The translations under genes and the position numbers were made by a program. DNA of 31,420 bases, taken from the NCBI GenBank assembly GCA_949286775.1, contig CASEDW010000056.1, positions 1 through 31,420 of the forward strand, written 5' to 3'. This stretch comes from an uncultured Eubacteriales bacterium. Its GTDB lineage: Bacteria > Bacillota > Clostridia > Lachnospirales > Lachnospiraceae. Numbering within the stretch: the stretch's first letter is position 1; each line of letters opens with the position of its first letter. Of this stretch, positions 1,398 to 27,051 are shown piece after piece. A model generated the notes under the pieces. The model was given only the letters and a program-made list of their open reading frames with translations. It did no database searches and was not told the origin of the DNA.

Positions 1398-1399
1398 TT

Positions 1400-2901: not shown

Positions 2902-2949
2902 CTTTAAAAGCCGTATAGTGACGGATATGATACGTCAGAAAGAGAAAAT

Positions 2950-4182
2950 ATGAATACAAACAAAGAAATCAATATTGAAGAAATAATAAGCAGGATAAAA
3001 GACAAAGCGGGAGAGTACCTTGACGATCAGGTGGAGCTCTTAAGAAATTTTGCGTCCTTTGACAGCGAGACACATTATATAGAGGGAAACAGAAAGGCTG
3101 TCGAGACGGCGAAAAAATACTTATCAGCTTTGGGAGCTGAATTTGAAGAGATTACATATGAAAACGCGGGAACGCATCTTCTCGCGAGGATAAAACCTGA
3201 AAATCCAAAGGGCAGGATCATTTTGAACGCTCATCTTGATACGGTATTTCCGGTCGGATTTGCTAAAGATCATCAGCCTTATATAGAAGGCGACTGGCTG
3301 CACGGACTTGGAGTTATCGACTGTAAAGGAGGCGTGGCCGTAAGCTGCTACGCGCTGTTGATACTGAAAGAGCTCGGACTTCTTCCCGATCTTCAGATAG
3401 ATATCCTCTATACATGCGATGAGGAACAGGGCTCGATGACCGGTCAGAAAGTATTTGAGAAGATCGCTCCGGGAGCTGACGCTGTTTTTATATTTGAGCC
3501 CGGCGATTATAAGGAAAACAAGCCGATTCCGATACTTACGAGCCGACAGGGCGTTATCCTCGGAAATCTTGACATCAAAGGCGTGGAGGCTCATGCGGGA
3601 TGCGATTATTCAAAAGGACACAGCGCCAACAGGGAGTTGGCATATAAGATACTTGAACTCTACAGCTTTAATGACGATAAAAAGGGAATATATTACAACG
3701 CGGCTCCTGTTAGCGGCGGACGTCCCAACGGAGTAGTATCGGGAAGCGCCAACATGCAGTTCTGCGTTGCGGGAATTCCCGACTGGGAATCGTATCATGA
3801 ATGCGAAAAAAAGCTGGATACATTGGGAGATCATGTAAATGACCCTGCTATAAGCCTTGAACTTTCATACAGGATGCTGTTTCCGCCTCAGATTTATCTT
3901 GAGGAAACGGGACGCATATATAAAGTCATCGAAAAGGCGGCGCGGCTTCTTGATGTAGAAGTTGAAGAGGCAGGCGTAAATCCTAACGGAGAGGACATAT
4001 TTCCGGCGACAGACGCGAATTATTTCGCGAGTTACGGAGTGCCCGCACTGGACGGATTTGGAGTTATGGGACTTGGAATGCATACTACGGAAGAAAAGGT
4101 ATATATACCGTCGATCAGAACAAAAACAGAGTTATTCGCGTCTGCTCTTTATCTTTTGGGACACGGATTAAATGAAAAGTAA
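2950..4182 (+). CDS. M20 family metallopeptidase/amidohydrolase; candidate formylaminopyrimidine deformylase (YlmB role)
   Basis: Metal ligand motifs HLDTV, DCKGG, DEEQGS, EPG and C-terminal GMHT are intact. Function is inferred from operon context. Confidence 0.8.
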   Translation: MNTNKEINIEEIISRIKDKAGEYLDDQVELLRNFASFDSETHYIEGNRKAVETAKKYLSALGAEFEEITYENAGTHLLARIKPENPKGRIILNAHLDTVFPVGFAKDHQPYIEGDWLHGLGVIDCKGGVAVSCYALLILKELGLLPDLQIDILYTCDEEQGSMTGQKVFEKIAPGADAVFIFEPGDYKENKPIPILTSRQGVILGNLDIKGVEAHAGCDYSKGHSANRELAYKILELYSFNDDKKGIYYNAAPVSGGRPNGVVSGSANMQFCVAGIPDWESYHECEKKLDTLGDHVNDPAISLELSYRMLFPPQIYLEETGRIYKVIEKAARLLDVEVEEAGVNPNGEDIFPATDANYFASYGVPALDGFGVMGLGMHTTEEKVYIPSIRTKTELFASALYLLGHGLNEK

Positions 4183-4201
4183 AGGAAAAAAAGAGGTAAA
4201 A

Positions 4202-5230
4202 ATGAAGATCAGAAAAACAGCAGCTATTTTATGCGCGGCAGTTATCGCGGCGGGATTGTCAGCATGCGAAACATCGGATGGTACAAAGGAAGGTTCTACA
4301 GAGGGAGGATTAAAAGCGATAGACGTTGTTCTTGACTGGTATCCGAACGCTATTCATACTTTTTTATATGAAGCCATAGACAGAGGATATTTTGAAGAGG
4401 AAGGACTTACAGTAAATCTTATAACTCCGGCCGACAGCGTAGACGCGATATCCTTTGTCGCGAACGGAAAAGCCGAAATAGGACTTACATATCCTGTAGA
4501 GACTATATACGCGGTTGAAAACGGAATGCCTGTCCGGGCGATAGCGGCGGTGTCGCAAAAGCCCCTTGACTGTCTGTGTACCCTTGCTGATTCAGGAATC
4601 ACATTTGATATGTCCACATTAAAAGGAAAAAAGATCGGATATTCAGGTACAGCTGTGGCGGAGGCGACTGTCCGCACGATTACGAGAAACGCGGGACTTA
4701 AAGACGAGGATTACGAACTGATCGACGTCGGCTTTGACCTCGTATCAAGCCTTACGACTAAAAGCGTGGATTTAGTGGCCGGAACATTTATTAACGATGA
4801 AGTCGTTACGATGAGAAACAACGGATATGATGTGACAGTTTACTCGGAGCAGGACTATGGAGTTCCGGAATTATACGGACTCGTGATGGATGTAAATACA
4901 GACGCTTACAATGAAGATCCTGAGATGTATGAGGCTTTCTTAAGAGCCTGCCAAAAGGGATTTGAAGATATGGCCTCAGGCGAAGACGAGGCTATGAGAG
5001 TTGTCATGGAAGAGATGAACAGCGCCGACAACCCTCTTGACGAAGAACAGCAGAGGGAAAGCTACAATATTCTCATGGACTGTATGGAGACTGACGACGC
5101 CGAGTTTCTCTCGATGAGTGAAGAAACCTGGAACGATATAATAAAATGGATGAAAGATTCGAATCTCATCACAGGATCGTATACAGCCGAGAATGTGGCC
5201 GAATTTATTAATCTTACAGCAGGTGAATAA
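4202..5230 (+). CDS. thiY: NMT1/THI5-family ABC substrate-binding lipoprotein (ThiY-like)
   Basis: Lipobox GLSAC. LDWYPNAIHTFLY...GYFEEEGL matches the ThiY N-terminus. GAGGT RBS favours ATG 4202. Confidence 0.82.
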   Translation: MKIRKTAAILCAAVIAAGLSACETSDGTKEGSTEGGLKAIDVVLDWYPNAIHTFLYEAIDRGYFEEEGLTVNLITPADSVDAISFVANGKAEIGLTYPVETIYAVENGMPVRAIAAVSQKPLDCLCTLADSGITFDMSTLKGKKIGYSGTAVAEATVRTITRNAGLKDEDYELIDVGFDLVSSLTTKSVDLVAGTFINDEVVTMRNNGYDVTVYSEQDYGVPELYGLVMDVNTDAYNEDPEMYEAFLRACQKGFEDMASGEDEAMRVVMEEMNSADNPLDEEQQRESYNILMDCMETDDAEFLSMSEETWNDIIKWMKDSNLITGSYTAENVAEFINLTAGE

Positions 5231-5236
5231 AGTATA

Positions 5237-5995
5237 ATGAAAAAAACAAGTGTCGCTGAAAGGATGCCTTCCGTTATTTTAGTGGCTGCGATTTTTGCCG
5301 CATGGCAGATTGCCGCGATGATAATAAATATGCAGCATATACTTCCGTCGCCTGCGGACATAATCTTAAAGATATGGGAGCTTAAGGAAAGTCTGTTTCT
5401 GCATCATCTTCCGTCAACTTTAATAACGATTTTTTCGGGATGGGGACTTTCGATAGTCACAGGTGTTCTATTGGCGTGTTTGATGCGGTTTTCAGCAATT
5501 GCGGAAGCATGTCTTAAGCCGCTTCTTATAATAACCCAGACTGTGCCAGTCATATGTATAAGTCCGCTGTTTGTAGTATGGTTTGGGTATACGATAGGCG
5601 CACGTCTCATAGCGGTGGTTTTGAGCACTTTTTTTGTAATAACGTTAAATACATACGACGGATTCTTAAGCGCCGACATAAAGAAAAAAGAGTGGATGAA
5701 GACATGCGGAGCAAACGCAAGGCAGATATTCTTTTATCTGGAAGTGCCGAGCGCGCTGCCAAAGTTTGTGACGGCTCTTAAGATGACGCTGCCGTGGGCT
5801 GTAATAGACGCCGCCGTCGCTGAGTGGCTTGGAGCGACTGAAGGCCTTGGTTATTTCAGCAAACGAATGATAGGAAAGATGGACGGGGCGGCGGTATTCG
5901 CGCCTGTCGTGATTTTATGCGTGATAGCTCTTATATGTATGGCTGTCTTAAAACATTTGGACAAAAAATATATCAGATACAGAAGCGAAGTCTGA
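5237..5995 (+). CDS. ABC transporter permease (ThiX-like, copy 2)
   Basis: QTVPVICISPLFVVWFG, GANARQIFFYLEVPSALPKF, AAVAEWLG; paralogue of 2149..2901. Confidence 0.88.
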   Translation: MKKTSVAERMPSVILVAAIFAAWQIAAMIINMQHILPSPADIILKIWELKESLFLHHLPSTLITIFSGWGLSIVTGVLLACLMRFSAIAEACLKPLLIITQTVPVICISPLFVVWFGYTIGARLIAVVLSTFFVITLNTYDGFLSADIKKKEWMKTCGANARQIFFYLEVPSALPKFVTALKMTLPWAVIDAAVAEWLGATEGLGYFSKRMIGKMDGAAVFAPVVILCVIALICMAVLKHLDKKYIRYRSEV

Positions 5996-16400: not shown

Positions 16401-16414
16401 AAAATAACGGATAT

Positions 16415-16454
16415 AAAAAATGGCAGTGCCGCGATCGCGACACTGCCATTTTTT
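16415..16454. terminator. Bidirectional intrinsic terminator
   Basis: AAAAAATGGCAGTG...CACTGCCATTTTTT. Confidence 0.85.
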
Positions 16455-16557
16455 GCGCGATATACCTGGCAAGCAGCCGCCGTGCTTGCACGAGCGGATA
16501 TTTGCTGGGTAACGGTCAACGAGTGGCAATGCCACGAGATGAGCGAGGTATCGCGCA
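16454..16557. repeat. 104-bp GC-rich element with terminal inverted repeats (MITE/REP-like or structured RNA)
   Basis: TGCGCGATA (16454-62) and TATCGCGCA (16549-57), with internal hairpins GCAAGCA/TGCTTGC and GTGGC/GCCAC. Only one copy in this window. Confidence 0.4.
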
Positions 16558-16593
16558 GATCGGATAGGGAAGAATACTTCCTCTATCCGATCT
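16557..16593. terminator. Long hairpin downstream of the hydrolase gene
   Basis: AGATCGGATAGGGAAG-AATA-CTTCCTCTATCCGATCT (about 16 bp with one bulge); no clear U-tract. Confidence 0.5.
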
Positions 16594-16623: not shown

Positions 16624-18726
16624 TTAAACATTAATTACCATGTGGCAGATAGTAAATGCCAGAATGATAAATGATGTAAGGAATCCGCCAAGCCATACTG
16701 AACCTGTTTTCTTTGCAAGGACTCTGCCGAAGATCGCAGATAACGGAAGGATCAGAAGAAGTCCGAAGAGCATGATTCCGGCAAGCGCTGTCGGGAACGG
16801 CATCCCTGTTAAAGCGATCCAGCTCTCGGAAGTTGTTCCCGGGATATATTGGATACCGCGTACATGTGTTGCGAACAATGTGCCGTAATCGTAAATGAAC
16901 ATTATGAGCAGTCCGCCGATAGAAGAAAATCCTATGAGAATGTAGTTAAGGATACTCTTTTTACCGTTGATTCGTGTCAGCGAGTTGTAAACAACATTTA
17001 CGATCAGGCAGAAACCAAACCATACCGGAAGGTATTTAAGGAATGCGATCCAGCGCTCTAAGTTCATCGGCTGAAGGCTGAATTTGAAGAATGTAAATGT
17101 TGAGCCTGTTGCCGCTGCGAGCAGCGTTATCAGTGCGTAGATCAAAGCAAATGATATAACCGCGAGCAGCAGAGCTCTGAAAACTTTTCCTGCCGGGAGT
17201 TTGAGTCCTGTGTTATCAAATGTAGACTGAGATTTTTTCTTACCCGTAAAGTATGCGATAAGGTAAATAACCAGTACTATAATTCCTACAACTCCGCTGA
17301 AGAGCATGAGTGAGTTCATCGGCGCCATATTGAATATCTCGTTAGGCATGAACTTTGTAAGGAACTTGAACCACTGCGGCTGCATATAGTAAGGGTAGCC
17401 TACGAGAGCATAATAGAGCAGCGGAGCCGGAAGCAGGAATATAATATACCATATCGCGTATTTGACACCGCTCTTTTTATCAGTGATGGTACTGATAGAA
17501 GCAGCTTCCTCGCGGCATATAGCTTTGAAGAATGGGATGCGGATAAGAGTCATGGCAAGAGCTACAAAGCTGATGAGCGCTGCGATAAGACCGATCAGTC
17601 CGCATGCCGCACGGCCGTGCCATACCTGATCCGTAGCTGCAAGTTCGCTGACTCCGCCTTTTAAGGTGATGTCAAAGAAATCGATACCGTATGATATAGC
17701 TGTTTCATCATAATAAGTGTCCGAATGAGTTCCGTTGAAGGTATAAGCTGCACGGAGCGGCTGGTACGTAAGCGCTGCGGAAGCGGCTGCCGCAACAGCT
17801 TCTTCTCTTGATAAAGGAGTAGCTGTTGGATCTCCATAGAGGAAATAAGTTCCTGACTCTACATTTGTAGCTCCGCCTGTGCCAAGTTTAAATTTGAAGC
17901 TTTCCGTATATTTACTTGCGTCGTCAACTCCCCAGAGAAGACCAGAGAATTCGTCATATTCGCCTTCGATGGTACATATATTTACAGGCGCGAGATAGAG
18001 CGGGAATACACCGTTTTCTTCCGTTACATTGTTATAAGTGAGATCCTCTGTGTTGCGGACATTGTAGTTATATCCCGTAAGAACCATTGAACCCGGAAGA
18101 ACGATTCCTGAATTCATCGCGTCGGCGTAAGCGGCTGTAGCGGCGTCTGTTTCGTTCATGCCTTCTTCGGTATACTGTGCAAGGCTTGCGTTATATACGG
18201 CGGTCCATCTTGTGTAGGCAATATATGCGCCCTCCTGGATAGCTGCCGTACCCATTGAATGACCGAGCATACCGATCTTTGTAAGGTCTACAAAATCATA
18301 TTTCGCGAACTCCTGCAATGCGCTGAAAGTTCCGAGATCGGGAGCGTAATCTGCTACGCTTCCCATTTCTACCTGGCTGTATCCGCTTTCAGGCAGCGGA
18401 GTTTCGCCGTGACCGTAGAGGTCGAGCGTCATGACAACATATCCGCGTCGTGAAAGTTCGATAGCATTCGGCTCCATATCGTCTGATGAGGCTGTGTAGC
18501 CGTGGCAGAGCAGAACGGCAGGAGCAGGTGTTTCTGCCGTGGCCGTTTCGGGAATGTACAGTTTGGCGTGAGCAGTTGCACCGATATCAGTTGTAAAAGT
18601 TAATTCTTCTGTACGCACCTTACCGCCGTTTGTCAGTATGCTTCCTGATACGACAGACGTGATGATCATTACAAGGATGCAGATGATCAAAACGATAGGA
18701 GATGCGTTCTTTTTTAATTTTTTCAT
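16624..18726 (-). CDS. Membrane-bound alpha/beta-hydrolase: N-terminal anchor, serine hydrolase domain, about 8 C-terminal TM helices
   Basis: PAVLLCHGY, LSRRGYVV...DLYGHG, nucleophile GHSMG, EGEYDE, GTHSD. Minus strand (CAT ending at 18726), contrary to the track label; GGGGGG RBS. Confidence 0.88.
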   Translation of the reverse strand: MKKLKKNASPIVLIICILVMIITSVVSGSILTNGGKVRTEELTFTTDIGATAHAKLYIPETATAETPAPAVLLCHGYTASSDDMEPNAIELSRRGYVVMTLDLYGHGETPLPESGYSQVEMGSVADYAPDLGTFSALQEFAKYDFVDLTKIGMLGHSMGTAAIQEGAYIAYTRWTAVYNASLAQYTEEGMNETDAATAAYADAMNSGIVLPGSMVLTGYNYNVRNTEDLTYNNVTEENGVFPLYLAPVNICTIEGEYDEFSGLLWGVDDASKYTESFKFKLGTGGATNVESGTYFLYGDPTATPLSREEAVAAAASAALTYQPLRAAYTFNGTHSDTYYDETAISYGIDFFDITLKGGVSELAATDQVWHGRAACGLIGLIAALISFVALAMTLIRIPFFKAICREEAASISTITDKKSGVKYAIWYIIFLLPAPLLYYALVGYPYYMQPQWFKFLTKFMPNEIFNMAPMNSLMLFSGVVGIIVLVIYLIAYFTGKKKSQSTFDNTGLKLPAGKVFRALLLAVISFALIYALITLLAAATGSTFTFFKFSLQPMNLERWIAFLKYLPVWFGFCLIVNVVYNSLTRINGKKSILNYILIGFSSIGGLLIMFIYDYGTLFATHVRGIQYIPGTTSESWIALTGMPFPTALAGIMLFGLLLILPLSAIFGRVLAKKTGSVWLGGFLTSFIILAFTICHMVINV

Positions 18727-18805
18727 AAAAAAAGTTCCCCCCCTTCTTTATTTTCCTGAACTTTAACATTTCCGGAAAAAGATTAAAAGAGGAGAAACAG
18801 GGTTG

Positions 18806-19984
18806 TCATTGACAGCGTCTGTCACGAAACATGACAACGTTTCTAAGAGGAAAAATTTCGGACCATCCGAAAGGATTTTCGTAATCAATTTTGTGAAGAC
18901 TCAATTCTTCTGTTCCGAGCCGCTTGCCGTCTGCGTAATCGATAAAACCGCCAAAAGGATTTTCTATTGGTGAAGATTCCATGGCTTCACGAAAAGATTC
19001 CCATGTAATTTCTTTGCCGGAGACTCTTTTGAGGCCTTCGCACAGAAAATGAGCGCCTATCCATCCGCAGTGAGCGTATCCGTTCATGGCATAATCGCCG
19101 AGCCAGTCGGATGCTTCGTTAAGAGCAGCCATGTGTCTTTGACTTGTATAATCAAGCCACCCAAAGGAATATATGTCGAATTTGTTTTTGATGACAGGTA
19201 TAAGCCGCATTGCGATAGTAACGACTGTGTTGACATAGGATGTCAAAACGGTCTTGCATGTGTCTGTTTCAGCCAGCGCGGCAGCAATGTCAGGGAAACT
19301 TTCCTGGCCGGCAGCGATGATTATAAAGTCAGGATCGTAATCTTTCATGGAAAGAACGGTGTCGCGGATTGATTTCAAAAACGCGCTCTGTTCGAGCATT
19401 TCAGGAGCCGGGATAATTTCTGAAAAAGAATCTGTCTGATGCTCTTTTAAAGTACGATTGATTCCGGATAAAAGATCATGCCCTATCGTTGTATCGGTAT
19501 ATAAAATGCCGATCTTTTTCGCATTAAAATCATGGATGGCGATTGACGCCATTGCCCGCCCCTCGGTGATATAGACCGGTTGGATAGGATAACAGTTGGC
19601 TCCGGACATAAAATCCATGGCATGTTCGTTATAAAGAGCGCCTACGCCTGTTCCGAAATAAACTACAGGCATACCGCTTTTTTTGATAAGATCAAGGGTC
19701 TGCATTACGATCGATCCGCCGAAATGGCCGACATATGCAAATATCTTGTTTTCATTGAGATAAGATGACAGGATGGATTCAGCTGTTTTCGGATCGTATC
19801 GGTCGTCGGTATGGATAAATTTAAGCTTTCGGCCGTCGATCCCGCCTCGGGAGTTGATCATGTCGAAATATGCTCTGATGCCGGCGTTGATCGGATCGCC
19901 TGTGCTTGCAAATATACCGCTTTGAGCTGCGCTGTTTGCGACAACAATGCAGTCTTTTGATACTCCGGGTGTATTAGTTTTCAT
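18806..19984 (-). CDS. Type-1 periplasmic binding fold protein (LivK/AmiC-like) lacking a signal peptide
   Basis: PGVSKDCIVVANSAAQSG, INSRGGIDGRKLKFIHTDDRYDP, AYVGHFG. AGGAG RBS 10 nt before the ATG; no hydrophobic leader or lipobox. Confidence 0.82.
   Translation of the reverse strand: MKTNTPGVSKDCIVVANSAAQSGIFASTGDPINAGIRAYFDMINSRGGIDGRKLKFIHTDDRYDPKTAESILSSYLNENKIFAYVGHFGGSIVMQTLDLIKKSGMPVVYFGTGVGALYNEHAMDFMSGANCYPIQPVYITEGRAMASIAIHDFNAKKIGILYTDTTIGHDLLSGINRTLKEHQTDSFSEIIPAPEMLEQSAFLKSIRDTVLSMKDYDPDFIIIAAGQESFPDIAAALAETDTCKTVLTSYVNTVVTIAMRLIPVIKNKFDIYSFGWLDYTSQRHMAALNEASDWLGDYAMNGYAHCGWIGAHFLCEGLKRVSGKEITWESFREAMESSPIENPFGGFIDYADGKRLGTEELSLHKIDYENPFGWSEIFPLRNVVMFRDRRCQ
18820..18836. promoter_or_regulatory. 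Candidate operator TGTCA-N7-TGACA (site 1)
   Basis: TGTCACGAAACATGACA, 94 bp upstream of the hydrolase ATG, next to TGTCATTGACA at 18804-14. Confidence 0.4.
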
Positions 19985-20009
19985 TTTTTGAACACTCCTG
20001 GTCTTTTTG

Positions 20010-20058
20010 TTGCATTATTATTTATGATATCATAAAATATCTTAAAACAGTTTGTAAA
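20010..20058. promoter_or_regulatory. Overlapping divergent promoters with a central 16-bp palindrome
   Basis: Plus strand: TTGCAT (20010-15), 17 nt, TAAAAT (20033-38). Minus strand: TTTACA (20058-53), 18 nt, TATGAT. Palindrome TTTATGATATCATAAA at 20021-36. Confidence 0.55.
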
Positions 20059-20082
20059 GCGAAAAATGACAGTTGCAGTATT

Positions 20083-20099
20083 TGTCATTGACAATGACA
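20083..20099. promoter_or_regulatory. Candidate operator TGTCA-N7-TGACA (site 2)
   Basis: Perfect palindrome TGTCATTG-A-CAATGACA directly before the regulator RBS, with an extra AATGACA at 20065-71. Confidence 0.5.
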
Positions 20100-20112
20100 G
20101 GGGGAAAAAGCA

Positions 20113-21618
20113 GTGACGTTTTCTGAAAAATTGGACATGCTGTTGAATATTACAAACACTCCGAATAATCTGCTCGCGAAAGTATTGTCTTTGGATCCTT
20201 CTTATATAAGCAGGATACGTCACGGCAGGAGAAATATTTTAGGCGGAGATTATATAGAAAATATCGCGGACTTTTTTTCGCACAGATGCATGAAAGAATA
20301 TATCTTATCCGCTCTGGCGGCCGCGATGGAAAATAAAGAAATTGAAACAGTTAAAACCGAGGAAGAACTGAAAGAACGGCTGAAGACGTGGCTTACAGAT
20401 GAACATTCGAAAAGCGGCGGCGTAAAAAATCTATTTAAAGATTTTGCTCAAATTTCTAATGAGGAAACCGCTAAAAAAACAGCGGCGGACAGAGAAAGAT
20501 CGGCGGCGGAGAATTCAAATCTTATGATGTTTTACGGAAACGTAGGCAGACGTCAGGCGACTCTGTCACTGTTTAACAGGATGCTGTCGAACGAAAAACC
20601 CGGAATGCTTCTTATGTTCAGCGATGAGAACTCAAAATGGATGAAGGAATCGGAAGAGTTTGAGCGTGAATGGGAAACGCTTTTGTGGCAGCTGATATTG
20701 AAAGGCAACAAAATAAAAGTTATCCATAAAGTCAGCCATGATATCGATGAAATGATGGAGGTCGTGCATAGATGGCTTCCGCTTTATGTAAGCGGCGCGG
20801 TTGAACCGTATTATTATCCGCGTCTCAGAGACGGAATCTACAAACGTACTCTGACGGTGGCGCCCGGATGCGCTGCGGTATTTGCCACTTCGATCGGGGA
20901 AAGCGGAGAAAACACGCCGAATTTTATGGCTACCGATAAACTGACTGTTGATTCTTTTACAAATGAATTTTTCAGTTATCTGACTCTTTGCAGGCCGCTT
21001 ATGAAGATCAGCACTGCAAAAAGATCGGAAGAAGTACTGGCTAAGCTGTATGAATTTATCACCTCTGACGGGCCGCTTACGATACAGGGAAATTCCATTG
21101 GAATGATGACATTGCCGATAGGACTTATAAATGACATAAATTGCGGCAAAGAAGTAAAACAGAGGCTTTTGGAAAGACAGGAACTGTGGAGCAGAAGATT
21201 TGAAGAAAAGCTGAAAAAAGACGAAGTCTATCATATAATCCGCCTGCATGATATCGCTGATCTGAAAAAAGGCAGTGCATGCATAAGATTTATATCTGAA
21301 GACGATAAGCTGGCGCTGTATTATACGACGGAAACATATAAAGAACATCTGAAGAATATATACAGACTCATGAAAGAAAATGAAAATTATCATGTTTTGG
21401 TAACGGCAAACGGCGAAAACAGATTTTCGGTGTATTGCAATGAAAATGAGGTAAGAATATTCAAAGATGACGAACCCGCGCTGATATTTGAAATAACGGA
21501 GCAGAACATGGTTTCAGCGTTCGGTGATTATTTTGAACAGGAGATCATCCTCGGTTATTCGGAACGTACACGCAAAAGAATGCAGAAAATAATAGAAGAT
21601 CTGATTTATTTTCTCTAA
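20113..21618 (+). CDS. Large transcriptional regulator with N-terminal XRE-like HTH and an uncharacterized C-terminal region
   Basis: TFSEKLDMLLNITNTPNNLLAKVLSLDPSYISRIRHGRR resembles an XRE HTH; GTG start with GGGGGA RBS; 501 aa. Confidence 0.7.
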   Translation: MTFSEKLDMLLNITNTPNNLLAKVLSLDPSYISRIRHGRRNILGGDYIENIADFFSHRCMKEYILSALAAAMENKEIETVKTEEELKERLKTWLTDEHSKSGGVKNLFKDFAQISNEETAKKTAADRERSAAENSNLMMFYGNVGRRQATLSLFNRMLSNEKPGMLLMFSDENSKWMKESEEFEREWETLLWQLILKGNKIKVIHKVSHDIDEMMEVVHRWLPLYVSGAVEPYYYPRLRDGIYKRTLTVAPGCAAVFATSIGESGENTPNFMATDKLTVDSFTNEFFSYLTLCRPLMKISTAKRSEEVLAKLYEFITSDGPLTIQGNSIGMMTLPIGLINDINCGKEVKQRLLERQELWSRRFEEKLKKDEVYHIIRLHDIADLKKGSACIRFISEDDKLALYYTTETYKEHLKNIYRLMKENENYHVLVTANGENRFSVYCNENEVRIFKDDEPALIFEITEQNMVSAFGDYFEQEIILGYSERTRKRMQKIIEDLIYFL

Positions 21619-21642
21619 GATAAATGTTTAAAGGTGGAAGAA

Positions 21643-22707
21643 ATGGATAAAACGGTAAACTTTCTGATGGAAATGTCAGAGCGGCAGATACAGTCAAGAG
21701 AATTTTTCAATACATTTCTTCTTGATTCAATCGAACGGAATTTTGGATTTTCAAATACGGTTATTTTTGTATTTGACCTGAATAATCATGCCTTATCACG
21801 TATTGATAAAAACGGCATAACAAAAGAAAATCCCTATGATCTAAACGACGACCCGGTCGGTGATAAGATATACAATGACGCTGTCAAAGACGGACTGACA
21901 TATTTTAATACGACGCCGAGAATATATAAATTCACCGGGATCATAAATAAAGATTATGATAATTCGGAAACCGCCCGTTTTCTTGAAAAAAATTTTCATA
22001 TGCATTACGGCATGACGATGGCTATGGGTATGAAAGCATATCTTCGCATCTGCATTATGAAAACCGAGGCGGAAGGGGATTTTGACGAGGAGGATATAAG
22101 AAGGATCGAAAAACTGTATACTTATATCACGTCGGGTTACCGCAATTTTAAGAAATACGAGCATCAGAGGATAATCTCGCAGATCAAAGACAGGATAATA
22201 GAATCCGGCGATACGGCGTATCTTATCACAGATGATTTCATGAATATACTCGATCATAACAGGCAGGTAATCGAATATCTGAAGGATATAATCGGAAACA
22301 GAGCGCTGCAGCAGATGCAGAAAAAAGGTTCATTTCAATGGGCGCTGTATTTTTTGAACAGTATAATTACGACCGGTGTTCATAACGACGGCGTCAGCAA
22401 TATTAAAGATTACAAGATTTCGGTTCATACATTTGAGCAGAAGTATATGCACGGCATCGTCGACAGATACCACTGGATCACTATCAGGAAGATTGCCAAA
22501 GATACCGAAGCAAAGAATAAAATACAGGAATATAAGCTTACAGCAAGAGAGATGAAGGTTGCGCAGCTGCTTTGTGAGGGAAAAACTTATAATGACATAG
22601 CCGATGAAATGATGATAAGCTATCATACCGTGAAAAATCATGTTTCTAATATATTTAAAAAATGCGGAATCGCCAGCAGATATGAGCTGAGCGTTTTAAT
22701 GGAATGA
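21643..22707 (+). CDS. LuxR-type HTH regulator with N-terminal GAF-like sensor region
   Basis: C-terminal LTAREMKVAQLLCEGKTYNDIADEMMISYHTVKNHVSNIFKK; no receiver domain. Start is either GTG 21634 or ATG 21643. Confidence 0.85.
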   Translation: MDKTVNFLMEMSERQIQSREFFNTFLLDSIERNFGFSNTVIFVFDLNNHALSRIDKNGITKENPYDLNDDPVGDKIYNDAVKDGLTYFNTTPRIYKFTGIINKDYDNSETARFLEKNFHMHYGMTMAMGMKAYLRICIMKTEAEGDFDEEDIRRIEKLYTYITSGYRNFKKYEHQRIISQIKDRIIESGDTAYLITDDFMNILDHNRQVIEYLKDIIGNRALQQMQKKGSFQWALYFLNSIITTGVHNDGVSNIKDYKISVHTFEQKYMHGIVDRYHWITIRKIAKDTEAKNKIQEYKLTAREMKVAQLLCEGKTYNDIADEMMISYHTVKNHVSNIFKKCGIASRYELSVLME

Positions 22708-22715
22708 AAGCATGG

Positions 22716-22750
22716 ATACTGCTGATGTTTTGTATATCAGCAGTATTTTT
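22716..22750 (+). terminator. Intrinsic terminator after the LuxR gene
   Basis: ATACTGCTGAT...ATCAGCAGTAT followed by TTTT. Confidence 0.75.
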
Positions 22751-22861
22751 ATGCCTGAAATGAAACACAGGGAAACTTTCCTAGTAAAAAATAGTAGTAT
22801 GTCCCGATATGAGCGGCATTTTATTTCGGATACAATATATTGCAAAGAAGAGGAGAAAACA

Positions 22862-23839
22862 GTGGAGCACAAAGCGATTCAGTTTAATATTCAGAGATTT
22901 ACTATTCATGACGGACCCGGGATCCGCACAGAAATCTTTCTGAAGGGATGTCCGCTAAAATGCCAATGGTGCAGCAACCCGGAGGGACAGAATGCTTTTA
23001 TTGAACCCGGGATATATCGTTCTAAATGCATCGGCGTGTCAAAGTGCGGTGACTGCAAGGGTATATGCCCGGTTGACGCAATTAGTTTTTATCGGAATAA
23101 AATATGCGCAGTCAATCGCATTAAATGCAGCAACTGTATGGCATGCGTGGACGAGTGCTGCAGCGAAGCGATCAAATCCTGGGGCAGCAGTATCACAGTA
23201 TCTGAGGCAATGGAAATCATAAAAAGAGATAAAGGTTTTTATGACAAATCAGGAGGCGGAGTGACTGTTTCCGGTGGAGATCCGCTTGTCTGGGCCGATT
23301 TTGTGCAGGAGCTTTTTAAGGAATGCCGAAAGGAAGGGATTCATACATGCCTGGAATCGACTTTCCATTTTGAAAGATGGGTTATGGATAAAGTCCTGCC
23401 GTACACCGATCTGATAATTTCAGATATAAAGCACATGAATACTGTGATTCACAAAAAATATACGGGTGTCGGCAATGAGCTGATTCTTGAAAATCTGAGA
23501 AGACTTTCGGAGGGAACTGTTCCTGTCATCTTAAGGATACCTGTGATCCCCGGTATAAACGATGATATGAAAAACATGAAGGATTCAGCCGATTTTATAA
23601 TAAATGAAATGCATGGAAATGTAAGGACGCTTCAGCTGCTTCAGTTTATGCGGCTGGGAGAAGAAAAATACATATCTCTTGGTCGTCCATATGAGATGGG
23701 ATATATAAAAATGTACAGAAAAAGATTCGCGCGTCAGGTTGAGAAAATAAGAGATTATTTCGTCGGACGAGGAATACATTGTACGGTTGGAACAAAAGAA
23801 AAAGGAGAAGAGAAAAATGACAGTAGTTCAGATGCATAA
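22862..23839 (+). CDS. Glycyl-radical enzyme activating enzyme (radical SAM with ferredoxin insertion; HpfH-like)
   Basis: FNIQRFTIHDGPGIRTEIFLKGCPLKCQWCSNPE, 8-Cys ferredoxin insertion, GGVTVSGGDP, LRIPVIPGIND. GTG start at 22862 with AGGAG RBS. Confidence 0.93.
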   Translation: MEHKAIQFNIQRFTIHDGPGIRTEIFLKGCPLKCQWCSNPEGQNAFIEPGIYRSKCIGVSKCGDCKGICPVDAISFYRNKICAVNRIKCSNCMACVDECCSEAIKSWGSSITVSEAMEIIKRDKGFYDKSGGGVTVSGGDPLVWADFVQELFKECRKEGIHTCLESTFHFERWVMDKVLPYTDLIISDIKHMNTVIHKKYTGVGNELILENLRRLSEGTVPVILRIPVIPGINDDMKNMKDSADFIINEMHGNVRTLQLLQFMRLGEEKYISLGRPYEMGYIKMYRKRFARQVEKIRDYFVGRGIHCTVGTKEKGEEKNDSSSDA

Positions 23840-26342
23840 ACCCCATGGAGTTGATCCTTTTGACAAGACATATTCATTGGGATATAAGGTCAATCATGAA
23901 GACTGGTCGCCGTATCCGCGTGTAAATCATCTTCGCAAGACTTTTTTAGACAGGGAATATTATATCGATGTGGAACGTTTCCGCAATGTTACGGCGGCAT
24001 ATAAAGAAAATGAGGACGCCACAGCCGAAATGAGATGCGCGCGAGCATTTGAAAAAATACTTATGAACGCGACGCTATATATTTACGACGAGGATCTGAT
24101 ATTGGGCGAGATCGCGGCGCCTGCTAAGGAGTCGCCGCAGTATCCGGAGTTTTCGGTAAACTGGATGCTTTATGAGGCGCTTCATGAGCCGTTTGAAGAG
24201 CGTGAACACGATCAGTTTTATTTTAAGAACGATGAGGACAGAAAAGAATTTATTGAACTTTGTCAATACTGGAAAGGCAAATGCGTCGACGACTATGCGA
24301 ATGCGTTTCTGGACGACGAGCAGCTGAAAGGTTCTCAGTCGGGAAAGAAGATATTTCAGACAAATCTTTATCATTACGGCGGCGTAGGCCACTGCGTGAT
24401 GGACTACGGGAAAATACTGCGCATCGGATATGACGGAATGATCAAACAGGCAAAAGAAGGACTGGACAGACTTAAGAAGACGGATCCCGATTTTGCGGTA
24501 AAAAGAGAATTTTATAAAGCGGCTATATATTGTTACGAGGCGGCCAAAAAATATATTTTAAGATATGCTTATCTTGCGGAAAGCAAAGCGGAAGCCGAAA
24601 ATGATCAAAAACGAAAAGAAGAATTGTTGATGATGGCAGAAAACTGCCGTCAGGTGGCGGGCGGTCCGGCAAAATCGTTCTGGCAGGCGCTTCAGCTGTT
24701 TAATTTTGCGACTACTCTTACTCAGATAGAGGGAAACGGCCATTCGATTTCATACGGAAGGATGGATCAGTGGCTGTATCCGTATTACAGAGCGGATATA
24801 GACAATAAAGTAATAACTCAGGAGTTTGCTCAGGAACTGCTTGAAGTCACATATGTAAAGATGAATAATCCTACGAAGATTCGTGACGGCGGAACAGCCA
24901 GGGTGCGTCAGGGACGAGGGTTTGGCGGAGAGTGTCTTACGATAGGCGGCGTTGATAAAGACGGAAACGATGTGACGAATGATCTGACGTTTATGCTTCT
25001 TGACGCTTCGGTACATACAAGGATGATGTGTCCGTGGCTTCTTGTCCGTATGCATGAAAATACGCCGTATGAATTAAAAGTAAAGACGGTTGAATGTATA
25101 CGCGCCGGTTACGGTCATCCGAAGATCTTTAATGACGCTCCGACGATAAAGTGTATGATGAGAAAAGGATGTACCCTTGAAGAGGCCAGAGACTATGCGG
25201 TGGTCGGATGCGTGGAGCCTAATCTTCCGGGAAGAGAATACGGATGGCATGACGCAGCTTATATAAATACCGTAAAATTTATGGAGATGGTGCTTAACGG
25301 CGGACGCTGTCTTGACTGCGGACCTCACTGTCCGAGATGGGAAAAATGCGGCGCGTTGGGAAAACAATTGGGTCCTGACACCGGAAGTCTTGATACATAC
25401 AAAACATTTGAAGAAGTTTTAGAAAGCGTAGATAAACAGTTCGAATATTGGACTGATCAGATGTGCAGCACGTTAAATGTTATTGACAGAGCCCACAGAG
25501 TACGCAAACCGCTTCCGTATCTCTCGGGATTTTTTGAAGGATGTCTTGAAAACGGCGTCGACATAACAGCCGGCGGAACAAAGATAAACGGTATCGGACC
25601 GCAGGCCAGCGGAATCGCCAGCTGCGCCGATACGCTTGCGGCGATAAAACAGCTCGTATTTGATGAAAAGAAATATACGGGATCACAGCTTTTGCAGGCG
25701 CTGAAAGATAACTGGACAGGACATGAAAAACTGTACCGGCTGATCAACAGCACAAAAGTTCATCATTACGGAAATGACGATGACTATGCCGATGATCTGT
25801 TCAGGTTCATGTTTGAATGCTACTGCCGTCATCTTACGGGCAGAAAGACGATTCGCAATGGAGAGTTTACTCCCGGTGTTTATTCTGTAAGCGCAAATGT
25901 AGGAATGGGATTAAATACAAATGCGTCCTTGGACGGAAGAAAGAGCGGCGAAGCGATCTCAGATAATATGGGACCTGTTCATACCGACTGCTGCTCTCAT
26001 GATTACTGCGGGCCGACGGCGCTTGCGCATTCGGTTAGCAAAGTGGATCATTCGCTAGCCACAAACGGAACGCTTTTAAATGTGAAATATCCGCAGGAAG
26101 CCGTTGCCGGTATCGAAGGCCGCGATAATCTTGTAAATTACATAGATGAATATCTGGCGTTGGGCGGCATGCATATCCAGTTTAATATTATGAGCTCAGC
26201 GACTATGCGCGCGGCTCAGAAAAAACCTGAGGATTATAAAGACATGTTGGTACGTGTCGCTGGATACAGCGCGTATTTTGTAGAACTCGGAAAACCGCTT
26301 CAAAAAGACCTGATACAGAGAACTGAATTGTCATTCGGATGA
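23817..26342 (+). CDS. Glycyl radical enzyme, diol-dehydratase/eliminase clade, resembling DHPS dehydratase HpfG (from recall); function not established
   Basis: Cys loop VVGCVEP, GWHDAA, SVSANV, glycyl radical motif RVAGYS, GHSISYGRMDQ. The N-terminus FDKTYSLGY..HEDWSPYPRVN and the GRGFGGE segment match my recollection of Klebsiella oxytoca HpfG. Start ATG 23817 (841 aa). Confidence 0.9.
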   Translation: MTVVQMHKPHGVDPFDKTYSLGYKVNHEDWSPYPRVNHLRKTFLDREYYIDVERFRNVTAAYKENEDATAEMRCARAFEKILMNATLYIYDEDLILGEIAAPAKESPQYPEFSVNWMLYEALHEPFEEREHDQFYFKNDEDRKEFIELCQYWKGKCVDDYANAFLDDEQLKGSQSGKKIFQTNLYHYGGVGHCVMDYGKILRIGYDGMIKQAKEGLDRLKKTDPDFAVKREFYKAAIYCYEAAKKYILRYAYLAESKAEAENDQKRKEELLMMAENCRQVAGGPAKSFWQALQLFNFATTLTQIEGNGHSISYGRMDQWLYPYYRADIDNKVITQEFAQELLEVTYVKMNNPTKIRDGGTARVRQGRGFGGECLTIGGVDKDGNDVTNDLTFMLLDASVHTRMMCPWLLVRMHENTPYELKVKTVECIRAGYGHPKIFNDAPTIKCMMRKGCTLEEARDYAVVGCVEPNLPGREYGWHDAAYINTVKFMEMVLNGGRCLDCGPHCPRWEKCGALGKQLGPDTGSLDTYKTFEEVLESVDKQFEYWTDQMCSTLNVIDRAHRVRKPLPYLSGFFEGCLENGVDITAGGTKINGIGPQASGIASCADTLAAIKQLVFDEKKYTGSQLLQALKDNWTGHEKLYRLINSTKVHHYGNDDDYADDLFRFMFECYCRHLTGRKTIRNGEFTPGVYSVSANVGMGLNTNASLDGRKSGEAISDNMGPVHTDCCSHDYCGPTALAHSVSKVDHSLATNGTLLNVKYPQEAVAGIEGRDNLVNYIDEYLALGGMHIQFNIMSSATMRAAQKKPEDYKDMLVRVAGYSAYFVELGKPLQKDLIQRTELSFG

Positions 26343-26364: not shown

Positions 26365-26856
26365 TTGCCTTTGGGCGTTCCGGCGCAGTGTACTCAGAAC
26401 GGAAATATAGAATACTGGCAGTGCGCTCTCTGCGGAAAATATTTTGCGGATGAAGCCGGATTAAACGAGATTACACAGGAGGCGACTGTGATACCGATGA
26501 GCGGTCATGACCTGGTAAAGACGGAAGCAAAAGCGCCGACATGCACACAGGCGGGAAATACACAGTACTGGCAGTGTACGGTCTGCGGAGCAGAAGATCC
26601 GAATTATGTTCCGGAAAAACCTGAACAGACACAGAAACCTGAACAGACGCAGAAACCTGAGCAGACACAGAAGCCTGAACAGACTACAAAACCGGTACAG
26701 GCAGGAAATGCTGATAAACCTGACTCAGGTAAAGGAAACGTTTCTTCGGCGCCGACAGGCGATACGAATGATGTTTCTATGTGGGCAGGCGTGATCGCGG
26801 TAGCAGCAGCCGGACTTGTAGGCACTGCGGCAATAAAAAGGAAAGATAAAAAGTAA
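26365..26856 (+). pseudogene. C-terminal remnant of a sortase-anchored surface protein
   Basis: Two CTxxGNxxYWxCxxCG repeats (the second truncated), PEQTQK linker, APTGD sorting motif, TM helix, KRKDKK tail. No RBS, ATG or signal peptide. Confidence 0.7.
26617..26688 (+). repeat. 4 x 18-bp coding tandem repeat (KPEQTQ)
   Basis: AAACCTGAACAGACACAG-like units at 26617, 26635, 26653 and 26671. Confidence 0.9.
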
Positions 26857-26879
26857 TACAAATTGATGACAAATGGTAT

Positions 26880-26915
26880 AAGGCGCGGCCGCGAAATCGG
26901 CTGCGCCTTGTTTTT
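26880..26915 (+). terminator. Intrinsic terminator
   Basis: AAGGCGCGGCCG-CGAAAT-CGGCTGCGCCTT followed by GTTTTT. Confidence 0.8.
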
Positions 26916-26980
26916 GCCGGAAAAATAAACTTTTAACATAGGAAAAACAGTGTTACGACGTTTTTCGTAGGGTTATGCTC

Positions 26981-27008
26981 TTGACATTGACCTGTCACAT
27001 GATAGAAT
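26981..27008 (+). promoter_or_regulatory. Sigma-70/SigA promoter of tyrS-alaS
   Basis: TTGACA (26981-86), 16 nt, TAGAAT (27003-08), with TG of an extended -10. Confidence 0.65.
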
Positions 27009-27051
27009 ATAATTTTGTATGATTATAATTACCGCACAGGGAGGAAACACC

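What the first reader, a model, noticed from the sequence alone, without database searches (positions are those of the whole stretch)
16624..26342. Candidate undescribed catabolic system: HpfG-like glycyl radical enzyme with a membrane serine hydrolase, a cytoplasmic ligand-binding protein and two regulators
Seen: a six-gene divergent block (hydrolase and SBP on the minus strand; XRE-like regulator, LuxR regulator, activase and GRE on the plus strand) between housekeeping genes, bounded by terminators. It has no aldehyde or alcohol dehydrogenase, no ABC or MFS permease, no microcompartment shell genes and no sulfo-sugar genes. Established: GCVEP/GWHDAA/SANV GREs are 1,2-eliminases. Characterised HpfG (DHPS dehydratase) loci carry a sulfopropionaldehyde reductase or dehydrogenase and often sulfoglycolysis genes. 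From recall this protein is close to HpfG but differs in substrate-lining segments (HYGGVGH, RVRQGRGFGGEC, CVEP, SVSANV, versus recalled HYAGAGH, AVRNGRGFGGES, CVEL, SVNANV). Inference: the surface hydrolase releases an anionic diol (sulfonate- or phosphate-like, given the Arg-rich RxRxGRG loop) from an acylated or lipid precursor, and the GRE dehydrates it. The substrate may not be DHPS.
Basis: partly seen in the sequence, partly recalled or inferred. Interest (0 to 1): 0.85.

Follow-up and report, generated by a model that had tools for sequence, protein, structure and literature searches.

The report
Orphan HpfG-like radical dehydratase beside unrelated esterase module
The six genes are two unrelated gene sets that only sit side by side in this one gut species, but the radical enzyme belongs to a large, unstudied branch of the DHPS-dehydratase (HpfG) family that has a changed substrate pocket and none of the usual partner genes, so it is a good target for enzyme discovery.

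Summary
All six genes and every quoted motif are there. They do not form one conserved system.

- **Module B** (LuxR regulator, activase, glycyl radical enzyme, GRE). The GRE passes NCBI's HpfG equivalog model (1607 bits, cutoff 1000). It is 70-72% identical to the Klebsiella, Hungatella and Enterococcus HpfG.
- **Module A** (membrane serine hydrolase, signal-less LivJ-like binding protein, HTH regulator). It was never within 10 kb of any of 80 related GRE loci. A same-genus genome has it with no HpfG-type GRE found. Two other same-genus genomes carry an HpfG-type GRE without it.

The GRE lies in a well-supported clade I call "type II" (38 of 76 family members retrieved). Its signature is G368, K/R372, Q375, C383 and S702, against K, A/I/L, N, S and N in the characterised type.

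- No type II locus has an HpfD orthologue, HpfE or HpfX nearby; 27 of 32 characterised-type loci have HpfD.
- Five type II genomes and this one have no HpfD orthologue anywhere.

Most likely it is a self-contained, LuxR-controlled dehydratase of DHPS or a close anionic diol. A different substrate is not excluded. The scan had noted a similar orphan LuxR-GRE operon in another genome.

The parts
16408..16450 (.). GC-rich hairpin flanked by A-run and T-run: bidirectional terminator after the dCMP deaminase gene; left edge of the inserted block
   Evidence: Read from the sequence. Same-genus genomes go from the dCMP deaminase gene to tyrS within about 1.2 kb or less.
16456..16592 (.). 137-bp structured repeat (MITE-like), variably present
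   Evidence: At least 8 copies at 86-97% identity on other contigs of this genome; fold energy -71 kcal/mol. A metagenome contig (X1) spans the site with the element exactly missing.
16624..18726 (-). Module A: membrane serine hydrolase (esterase-like), 700 aa. N-terminal anchor, alpha/beta-hydrolase domain with GHSMG at 155-159, then 8 C-terminal membrane segments
   Evidence: Pfam Hydrolase_4/Abhydrolase. Weak PDB matches to acetyl-xylan esterases and PET/MHET hydrolases. Hydropathy. Relatives in 26 genomes without a GRE nearby.
18806..19984 (-). Module A: LivJ/AmiC-type ligand-binding protein (Peripla_BP_6), 392 aa, no signal peptide or lipobox, no permease or ATPase genes nearby
   Evidence: The G012 orthologue (69-79% identity) has the same short N-terminus.
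19985..20112 (.). Divergent promoter region between the binding-protein/hydrolase pair and the HTH regulator gene
   Evidence: Promoter-like hexamers on both strands at 20017-20095; sequence.
20113..21618 (+). Module A: 501-aa regulator with an N-terminal Cro/C1-like HTH and a large C-terminal domain of phospholipase-D-like fold without an HKD motif
   Evidence: No Pfam family passes; HTH_3 E 0.023. AlphaFold model pLDDT 79. Foldseek matches to PLD, phosphatidylserine synthase and F13 and to AFDB 'HTH cro/C1-type domain' clusters. 66% orthologue in G012.
21643..22707 (+). Module B: LuxR-family regulator. C-terminal GerE HTH, N-terminal domain of about 290 aa with no known family. Starts 24 nt after the HTH gene's stop, behind its own ribosome-binding site
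   Evidence: Full-length relatives (38-46% identity) lie near the activase-GRE cassette in 47 of 80 loci, mostly directly upstream of the activase, including Klebsiella, Hungatella and Enterococcus.
22716..22751 (+). Terminator-like hairpin with a T-run after the LuxR gene. It separates the regulator from the activase-GRE operon
   Evidence: Read from the sequence. The scan did not flag it.
22862..23839 (+). Module B: GRE-activating radical-SAM enzyme (HpfH-like); likely GTG start at 22862
   Evidence: NF048008 HpfH 488.9 bits (cutoff 500) with the match starting at ORF residue 58. Ribosome-binding site GAGGAG upstream of the GTG. 50-64% identical activases in 75 of 80 loci.
23817..26342 (+). 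Module B: glycyl radical 1,2-eliminase of the HpfG family, 'type II' subclade. Residue numbers follow the 851-aa ORF from 23787: Cys475/Glu477, His202, Asp489, Gly826 in RVAGYS, Arg374/Arg377 loop
   Evidence: NF048009 1607 bits, cutoff 1000. Residue mapping to glycerol dehydratase 1R8W. Clade support 99. Signature residues.
26365..26856 (+). Gene remnant: C-terminal end of a sortase-anchored surface protein (two Cys-rich repeats, PEQTQK linker, APTGD motif, membrane anchor, KRKDKK tail). It has no start region or signal peptide
   Evidence: Translation; no Pfam family. Partial, frame-broken matches in same-genus genome G004.
26884..26915 (+). Terminator hairpin and T-run; right edge of the block, just before the tyrS promoter (26981-27008)
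   Evidence: Sequence; promoter match 11 of 12.

Best explanation
The block is two independent accessory modules lying in one insertion between the dCMP deaminase and tyrS genes.

**Module B (21643-26342)** is a self-contained cassette.
- A LuxR-type regulator is followed by its own terminator, then by an activase-GRE operon.
- The activase puts a radical on Gly826.
- The radical passes to Cys475, which abstracts hydrogen from the primary-alcohol carbon of a vicinal diol.
- Glu477 and His202 promote loss of the neighbouring hydroxyl, giving an aldehyde. This is the chemistry of glycerol dehydratase and HpfG.
- The Arg374/Arg377 loop, which only the HpfG family has, holds an anionic group.
- The most likely substrate is DHPS, giving 3-sulfopropionaldehyde.
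- With no HpfD, HpfE or HpfX, a non-orthologous iron alcohol dehydrogenase or aldehyde dehydrogenase encoded elsewhere would handle the product.
- The enzyme belongs to a distinct 'type II' clade with a remodelled anion pocket. That clade moves between genomes as a bare activase-GRE cassette, with or without LuxR.

**Module A (16624-21618)** is an unrelated esterase unit.
- An HTH regulator with a PLD-like sensor domain is divergently transcribed from a cytoplasmic LivJ/AmiC-like ligand binder and a membrane-embedded serine esterase.

**Shown:** gene content, family membership, the clade, the signature residues, and the lack of co-occurrence.
**Inferred:** the substrate, the fate of the product, the roles of the module A proteins, and the placing of the signature residues in the pocket.
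For: **GRE family.** NF048009 scores 1607 bits against a cutoff of 1000. The GRE is 70-72% identical to the Klebsiella, Hungatella and Enterococcus enzymes. The catalytic residues map onto glycerol dehydratase 1R8W. The VRxGRGFGG loop is kept.

**LuxR is a family feature.** It lies near the cassette in 47 of 80 loci, mostly directly upstream of the activase, in both subtypes.

**Type II clade.** SH-aLRT support is 99 for 38 rows. Only 9 of 851 columns separate the types strictly. Of these, 368, 375 and 383 lie in the Arg loop and 702 lies in the strand that carries the Tyr640 equivalent.

**No partner genes.**
- An HpfD orthologue lies within 10 kb in 0 of 38 type II loci, against 27 of 32 characterised-type loci.
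- The three iron alcohol dehydrogenases near type II loci are only 32-33% identical to HpfD. True orthologues are 68-92% identical.
- In five type II genomes the best HpfD match is 33-41% identical.
- In this genome the best match is 35-36%, with no HpfE or HpfX match.
- 126 non-redundant type II neighbours hit 158 Pfam families with no common theme.

**Hints of an imported anion that yields an aldehyde.** Type II loci L043 and L052 carry an SsuA/NMT1-type ABC importer, an aldehyde dehydrogenase and an iron alcohol dehydrogenase beside the cassette.

**The modules are independent.** In a sample of 150 genera of the family, the GRE was found once and the hydrolase not at all. The nearest relatives differ too: the GRE's carry Anaerovoracaceae-type labels and the hydrolase's Oscillospiraceae labels.

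**The block is an insertion.** Four same-genus genomes have the dCMP deaminase gene and tyrS about 1.2 kb or less apart.
Against: - Only 24 nt, with no terminator, separate the stop of the module A regulator gene from the LuxR start. The two regulators may be co-transcribed here, which would couple the modules in this species.
- Both modules are present in the same species in four metagenomes. In X1, overlapping contigs tile almost the whole block, leaving one 180-bp gap. The arrangement is therefore stable.
- The pocket changes and the complete loss of HpfD, HpfE and HpfX could mean a substrate other than DHPS.
- In cow-rumen microcosms sulfoquinovose went to isethionate and DHPS was not detected (PMC13219744), yet many type II genomes come from ruminant guts.
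- The type II state arose once. The contrast in gene context is therefore one evolutionary event seen in many descendants, not 38 independent tests. I also defined the groups by motif before counting.
- The genome is 81% complete, and many loci are cut by contig ends.
Confidence: 0.55

Rival explanations
1. Type II enzymes have a different physiological substrate from HpfG. It would be another small vicinal diol with an anionic group, such as (R)-DHPS, the carboxylate isostere 3,4-dihydroxybutyrate (product succinate semialdehyde), glycerate, or a phosphonate or phosphate diol. That would explain why the sulfonate-specific partners are absent.
For: - Four of the nine strictly discriminating columns lie in the predicted anion-pocket loops. 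A positive charge also moves from position 368 to 372.
- Type II loci have no HpfD, HpfE or HpfX, and the genomes checked have no HpfD orthologue.
- This genome and five type II genomes all encode 4-hydroxybutyryl-CoA dehydratase. In those five an iron alcohol dehydrogenase lies about 2 kb downstream of it, so succinate semialdehyde could be used directly.
- HpfD, HpfX and HpfYZ are homologues of enzymes that act on succinate semialdehyde and succinyl-CoA (PMC11489063).
- DHPS was not detected in rumen sulfoquinovose microcosms.
Against: - The score is far above NCBI's equivalog cutoff.
- Both Arg residues of the loop are kept.
- N375Q together with N702S could be a volume-compensating pair for the same ligand.
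- The same LuxR regulator family serves both types.
- L043 and L052 pair a type II GRE with an SsuA-type, sulfonate-like importer.
- No paper links a GRE to dihydroxybutyrate.
- The 4-hydroxybutyrate pathway may simply be common in these butyrate producers.
Confidence: 0.3
2. All six genes form one pathway: the surface hydrolase frees an anionic diol from an acylated or lipid precursor, the binding protein and regulators sense it, and the GRE dehydrates it.
For: - The six genes are adjacent in one insertion.
- The junction between the HTH gene and LuxR is only 24 nt, with no terminator.
- The layout is stable across metagenomes.
- A paralogous hydrolase in this genome sits next to glycerol-dehydrogenase-like and dihydroxyacetone-kinase genes. 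This hints that the family acts on glycerol esters.
Against: - Module A co-occurs with none of 80 GRE loci, and the GRE with none of 26 hydrolase loci.
- Within the genus the two modules occur separately.
- Their nearest relatives come from different lineages.
- There is no importer for the supposed product.
- In Oscillospiraceae the hydrolase sits with a sigma-54 regulator, a GntP permease and 4-hydroxybutyrate genes, not with a GRE.
Confidence: 0.08
3. An ordinary (S)-DHPS dehydratase whose HpfD, HpfE and sulfoglycolysis partners lie in the unassembled 19% of the genome.
For: The genome is 81% complete in 266 contigs. The HpfG equivalog model is passed.
Against: Five other type II genomes, including isolates and near-complete assemblies, have no HpfD orthologue. 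None of 38 type II loci has one nearby.
Confidence: 0.07

Closest known systems
HpfG/HpfH, (2S)-DHPS dehydratase and its activase (Klebsiella oxytoca; also Hungatella, Enterococcus gilvus; Liu et al. 2020 as cited in PMC11489063)
   Same: - It passes NCBI's equivalog model and is 70-72% identical.
- It has the same Cys-Glu loop, glycyl loop and Arg-rich VRxGRGFGG loop.
- The activase lies directly upstream.
- A LuxR-type regulator of the same family lies upstream.
   Different: - It belongs to a separate clade with G368, K/R372, Q375, C383 and S702, against K, A/I/L, N, S and N.
- No HpfD reductase, HpfE exporter, HpfXYZ or sulfoglycolysis genes lie in the locus, and no HpfD orthologue lies in the type II genomes checked.
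- No member of this clade is reported as assayed in the papers I could search.
B12-independent glycerol dehydratase (Clostridium butyricum, PDB 1R8W/1R9D) and 1,2-propanediol dehydratase (PDB 5I2A/5I2G)
   Same: - These are the best solved relatives (607 and 539 bits).
- His164, Cys433, Glu435, Asp447 and Tyr640 are all conserved.
- Position 702 is Ser, as in these enzymes.
   Different: - The Tyr339 loop (FGGYPM-YQN) is replaced by the Arg-rich RQGRGFGGEC loop.
- The score falls just below the PFL2/glycerol dehydratase subfamily cutoff (668.6 against 678.2).
- There are no microcompartment genes.
HpsG, DHPS sulfolyase (Bilophila, PDB 6LON)
   Same: It is a GRE that acts on DHPS, with a Cys-x-Glu loop.
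   Different: The match is only 483 bits against a cutoff of 1000. HpsG does C-S cleavage and uses a different sulfonate-binding triad (Arg183, Gln187, Arg672).
AmiC-type cytoplasmic LivJ-fold sensors (comparison for the signal-less binding protein; recalled, not tested)
   Same: It has the Peripla_BP_6 fold, no export signal and no transporter genes, and it sits beside a regulator gene.
   Different: There is no sequence-level match to AmiC. The partner is an HTH/PLD-like protein, not an AmiR antiterminator. The interaction test gave no verdict.

Membership tests
HpfG (DHPS dehydratase) family | Scores above the curated cutoff of NCBIfam equivalog NF048009 | tested here: met
   1607.4 bits against cutoff 1000, covering the full model.
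HpfG (DHPS dehydratase) family | Eliminase catalytic set: glycyl loop RVAGYS, GCVE Cys-Glu loop, and the equivalents of His164 and Asp447 | tested here: met
   Gly826, Cys475/Glu477, His202 and Asp489.
HpfG (DHPS dehydratase) family | Arg-rich loop VRxGRGFGG in place of the Tyr339 loop of glycerol dehydratase | tested here: met
   RVRQGRGFGGEC at 372-383. Both Arg residues are invariant in 76 family members.
HpfG (DHPS dehydratase) family | Pocket-loop residues as in the characterised type (K368, N375, S383, N702) | tested here: not met
   G368, Q375, C383 and S702, which are fixed in all 38 type II sequences.
HpfG (DHPS dehydratase) family | Genomic partners HpfD (3-sulfopropionaldehyde reductase), HpfE exporter, or HpfXYZ/sulfoglycolysis genes | tested here: not met
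   None in the window. The genome's best HpfD match is 35-36% identical, with no HpfE or HpfX match (genome 81% complete). None in 38 type II loci. No HpfD orthologue in five type II genomes.
HpfG (DHPS dehydratase) family | Cognate activase adjacent (HpfH) | tested here: inconclusive
   An activase lies directly upstream. NF048008 scores 488.9 bits, just under the cutoff of 500.
HpfG (DHPS dehydratase) family | Dehydrates (S)-DHPS to 3-sulfopropionaldehyde | not testable with these tools
   This needs anaerobic activation and an enzyme assay.
HpsG (DHPS sulfolyase) | Scores above the NF048011 cutoff | tested here: not met
   483 bits against 1000.
PFL2/glycerol dehydratase subfamily | Scores above the TIGR01774 cutoff | tested here: not met
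   668.6 bits against 678.2.
GRE-associated microcompartment loci | Shell protein genes near the GRE | tested here: not met
   No shell family among the scanned window ORFs.
ABC-transporter substrate-binding protein (for the Peripla_BP_6 protein) | Export signal or lipobox, and adjacent permease and ATPase genes | tested here: not met
   The N-terminus MKTNTPGVSKD has no signal. The fold match starts at residue 15. There are no transporter genes in the block. The G012 orthologue is the same.
XRE/Cro-C1 HTH regulators (for the 501-aa protein) | A recognisable HTH_3-type domain | tested here: inconclusive
   HTH_3 E 0.023, 15 bits, below the cutoff. The structure model matches AFDB clusters named HTH cro/C1-type.
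LuxR/GerE regulators | C-terminal GerE HTH domain | tested here: met
   PF00196, 56.7 bits, residues 302-354.

The most novel reading that the evidence does not exclude
The type II clade is a glycyl radical dehydratase with a substrate nobody has described. It would be an anionic vicinal diol other than (S)-DHPS. The most attractive candidate is 3,4-dihydroxybutyrate, the carboxylate isostere of DHPS. Its product, succinate semialdehyde, would feed straight into the 4-hydroxybutyrate-to-butyrate pathway found in all six type II genomes checked. In that reading the neighbouring esterase, whose relatives sit beside 4-hydroxybutyrate genes in Oscillospiraceae, might supply the hydroxy acid in this species.
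Probability: 0.25. Interest if true: 0.75.

Novelty: new variant of a known kind. Interest (0 to 1): 0.45.

Why it matters
HpfG is the only known dehydratase route for DHPS, a major product of plant sulfolipid breakdown in guts. Genome surveys count 'hpfG' hits as DHPS-fermenting capacity.

Half of the family members retrieved here (38 of 76) belong to a clade with a changed pocket and none of the pathway partners. They come mostly from ruminant and other gut bacteria.

- **If these enzymes still use DHPS,** sulfonate cross-feeding reaches lineages and pathways that current models leave out.
- **If they do not,** current annotation mislabels a large group, and a new radical enzyme activity awaits discovery.

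Either way, isolates that carry type II cassettes make the question directly testable. The case also shows that a tidy six-gene block can be two modules joined by chance.

Tried and rejected
- **Complex prediction** of the binding protein with the HTH regulator gave no verdict, score 0.00 (collected). It is not evidence either way.
- **Rfam** found nothing at gathering scores in the window, and only weak chance-level matches at the repeat and upstream of tyrS. There is no T-box.
- **The original HpfG paper** (PNAS 2020, PMC7354929) is not held. Its homology model could not be consulted, so pocket positions rest on my mapping to 1R8W plus recalled contact residues (Tyr339, Tyr640, Asp447).
- **The LivJ-type binding protein next to type II GREs in L018 and L022** is a lipoprotein only about 20% identical to the window's protein, so there is no specific link.
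- **Contig C101** of this genome first looked like a partner locus, because it has 82% and 72% matches to genes beside hpf in Faecalicatena. It encodes a glycerol-dehydrogenase-like protein and a dihydroxyacetone kinase, not sulfonate genes.
- **The Fe-ADH, aldehyde dehydrogenase and ABC genes of L043 and L052** have no close orthologues in this genome.
- **No RNA sequencing run** holds the locus, so co-expression could not be tested.
- **The four-Cys insert in the GRE** is not specific to type II.
- **Atomic coordinates** of models are not returned by the tools, so no distances to the active site could be measured.
Full report
**What is in the sequence**

Six ORFs lie at the stated coordinates.
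- **Hydrolase.** It has the alpha/beta-hydrolase fold, a GHSMG nucleophile elbow, one N-terminal membrane segment and eight C-terminal ones.
- **Binding protein.** It matches Peripla_BP_6, starting at residue 15, and has no signal peptide.
- **HTH protein.** The 501-aa protein passes no Pfam family and has a weak HTH_3 match at residues 20-54. A model with pLDDT 79 shows an N-terminal helical part and a C-terminal domain of phospholipase-D-like fold. Its nearest AlphaFold DB clusters are named HTH cro/C1-type.
- **LuxR protein.** It has a C-terminal GerE domain.
- **Activase and GRE.** They match NCBI's HpfH model (488.9 bits, cutoff 500) and HpfG model (1607.4 bits, cutoff 1000).
- **Flanks.** They are housekeeping genes.

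Reading the junctions refines the gene starts.
- LuxR starts at ATG 21643, 24 nt after the HTH gene's stop.
- A terminator-like hairpin follows LuxR at 22716-22751.
- The activase starts at GTG 22862.

The layout is therefore binding protein and hydrolase on the minus strand. On the plus strand come HTH and LuxR, a terminator, then activase and GRE.

**Is it one system?**

I fetched 80 genomic loci that encode GREs 67-82% identical to this one, with 10 kb on each side.
- The activase is present in 75 of them.
- A full-length LuxR relative is present in 47, including Klebsiella, Hungatella and Enterococcus.
- The hydrolase, binding protein and HTH protein are present in none.

In the other direction, 26 genomes encode a hydrolase 66-83% identical. 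None has a GRE, activase or LuxR gene within 8 kb.

Within the genus (14 genomes):
- G012 has hydrolase, binding protein and HTH protein next to metal-homeostasis genes, and no HpfG-type GRE was found in it.
- G010 and G013 have an HpfG-type GRE elsewhere and no hydrolase.
- G004 has the same LuxR-activase-GRE at 92-97% DNA identity.

In a sample of 150 other genera of the family, the GRE was found once and the hydrolase never. Four same-genus genomes have the dCMP deaminase gene and tyrS about 1.2 kb or less apart, so the 10-kb block is an insertion.

The nearest relatives of the two modules also carry different lineage labels. I conclude that the block is two modules: A (hydrolase, binding protein, HTH) and B (LuxR, activase, GRE).

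Two points count in favour of a link in this species.
- The junction between the HTH gene and LuxR is tight and has no terminator.
- Both modules are found in the same species in four metagenomes.

**The GRE is a distinct branch of the HpfG family**

I aligned the 76 full-length family members and found two sequence types.
- **Characterised type** (Klebsiella, Hungatella, Enterococcus): xVRNGRGFGGES and SVNANV.
- **Type II** (the window's enzyme and 37 others): [KR]VRQGRGFGGEC, GCVEP and SVS[AG]NV.

A maximum-likelihood tree, rooted on four more distant GREs from same-genus genomes, recovers type II as one clade with SH-aLRT 99. Only nine of 851 columns separate the types strictly: 134, 295, 312, 368, 375, 383, 418, 419 and 702.

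I mapped these onto glycerol dehydratase 1R8W.
- Positions 368-383 replace the loop that carries Tyr339.
- Position 702 lies three residues after the Tyr640 equivalent.
- His164, Cys433, Glu435 and Asp447 are conserved.
- That Tyr339 and Tyr640 contact glycerol is recalled, not checked here.
- Both Arg residues of the loop are invariant in both types.
- A Lys at 368 in the characterised type is replaced by a Lys or Arg at 372 in type II.

**Gene context splits the same way**

I clustered all ORFs of the 80 loci.
- True HpfD orthologues (68-92% identical to Klebsiella HpfD) lie in 27 of 32 characterised-type loci. The TauE-type exporter HpfE and the aldehyde dehydrogenase HpfX are frequent there (Pfam; roles from PMC11489063).
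- No type II locus has any of them.
- Three type II loci have an iron alcohol dehydrogenase, but it is only 32-33% identical to HpfD.
- Five type II genomes, including isolates, have no HpfD match better than 41%. This genome has none better than 36%.
- 126 non-redundant neighbours of type II cassettes hit 158 Pfam families with no theme.

A few type II loci do carry transport or aldehyde genes.
- L043 and L052 have an SsuA/NMT1-type ABC importer, an aldehyde dehydrogenase and an iron alcohol dehydrogenase.
- L018 and L022 have a LivJ-type ABC importer.
- L013 and L014 have a PF03601 membrane protein.

Three caveats apply.
- The type II state arose once, so this is one event seen in many descendants.
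- I defined the groups by motif before counting.
- Many loci are cut by contig ends, and my ORF caller is crude.

**What it most likely does**

The catalytic machinery is that of a 1,2-eliminase acting on a vicinal diol, and the Arg loop argues for an anionic group. DHPS remains the most likely substrate for three reasons.
- The equivalog score is high.
- The same LuxR regulator family serves both types.
- Two type II loci carry a sulfonate-type importer.

The product aldehyde would be handled by non-orthologous dehydrogenases. This genome has an iron alcohol dehydrogenase paired with an aldehyde dehydrogenase on contig C204. The other type II genomes have an iron alcohol dehydrogenase about 2 kb downstream of their 4-hydroxybutyryl-CoA dehydratase gene.

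A different substrate is a serious rival.
- The pocket changes and the complete loss of sulfonate-specific partners fit it.
- In cow-rumen microcosms sulfoquinovose went to isethionate and DHPS was not detected (PMC13219744).
- The carboxylate isostere 3,4-dihydroxybutyrate would give succinate semialdehyde, one step from the butyrate pathway these genomes encode. I found no literature on that.

**Module A**

The hydrolase family looks like a membrane-embedded esterase.
- In Oscillospiraceae it sits beside a sigma-54/PAS activator, a GntP permease, a 4-hydroxybutyrate CoA-transferase and a 4-hydroxybutyryl-CoA dehydratase.
- A 24%-identical paralogue in this genome sits beside glycerol-dehydrogenase-like and dihydroxyacetone-kinase genes and a PocR-type regulator.

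The signal-less binding protein with no transporter is best read as a cytoplasmic ligand sensor. This is an inference.

**Comparison with what is known**

Published work describes HpfG only for the characterised type and always together with HpfD. A 2026 review states that no HpfG structure exists. I found no paper describing the type II clade. The search covered open-access papers only.

**Verdict**

The 'single six-gene system' reading is not supported. The 'HpfG-like but different' reading is supported at the level of sequence and gene context, with the substrate still open.

Noticed in passing
window 16456-16592: A 137-bp, strongly folding repeat (-71 kcal/mol) has at least 8 copies (86-97% identity) on other contigs of this genome. 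A metagenome contig of the same species lacks it exactly at this site, so it is a mobile MITE-like element. No Rfam family matches it.
   Followed up: partly
It is present in all type II and intermediate-type sequences and in some characterised-type ones that sit with HpfD (for example Hungatella and Faecalicatena). It is absent from Klebsiella and Enterococcus. It therefore does not mark the type II clade.
   Followed up: partly
window 26365-26856: An ORF with no start region encodes only the C-terminal end of a sortase-type surface protein: two Cys-rich repeats, a PEQTQK linker, APTGD, a membrane anchor and a basic tail. It looks like a remnant cut off when the GRE cassette was inserted.
   Followed up: partly
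window 20113-21618: The HTH regulator's large C-terminal domain is predicted to have a phospholipase-D-like fold but no HKD motif. The domain looks like an enzyme fold reused as a sensor. Relatives 21-33% identical occur in 18 other genera of the family, in varied contexts.
   Followed up: partly
G000 contig C101 (locus L134) 808-5595: A glycerol-dehydrogenase-like gene and a dihydroxyacetone-kinase gene are 82% and 72% identical to genes inside the Faecalicatena sulfoquinovose cluster. They are followed by a paralogue of the membrane hydrolase and preceded by a PocR-domain regulator.
   Followed up: partly
loci L083-L105 (Oscillospiraceae): Relatives of the membrane hydrolase recur next to a sigma-54/PAS activator, a GntP permease and the 4-hydroxybutyrate CoA-transferase and dehydratase genes. 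This suggests an uncharacterised esterase that feeds a hydroxy-acid fermentation.
   Followed up: partly
window 26857-27018: The tyrS gene has a near-consensus promoter (26981-27008) but no detectable T-box leader.
   Followed up: partly
same-genus genomes G010 and G013 (loci L042, L038): These same-genus genomes carry an intermediate HpfG type (N375, C383, N702) at a different locus. In G010 it lies behind a glycerol-dehydrogenase-like gene and LuxR. The genus has therefore acquired HpfG-family cassettes more than once.
   Followed up: partly
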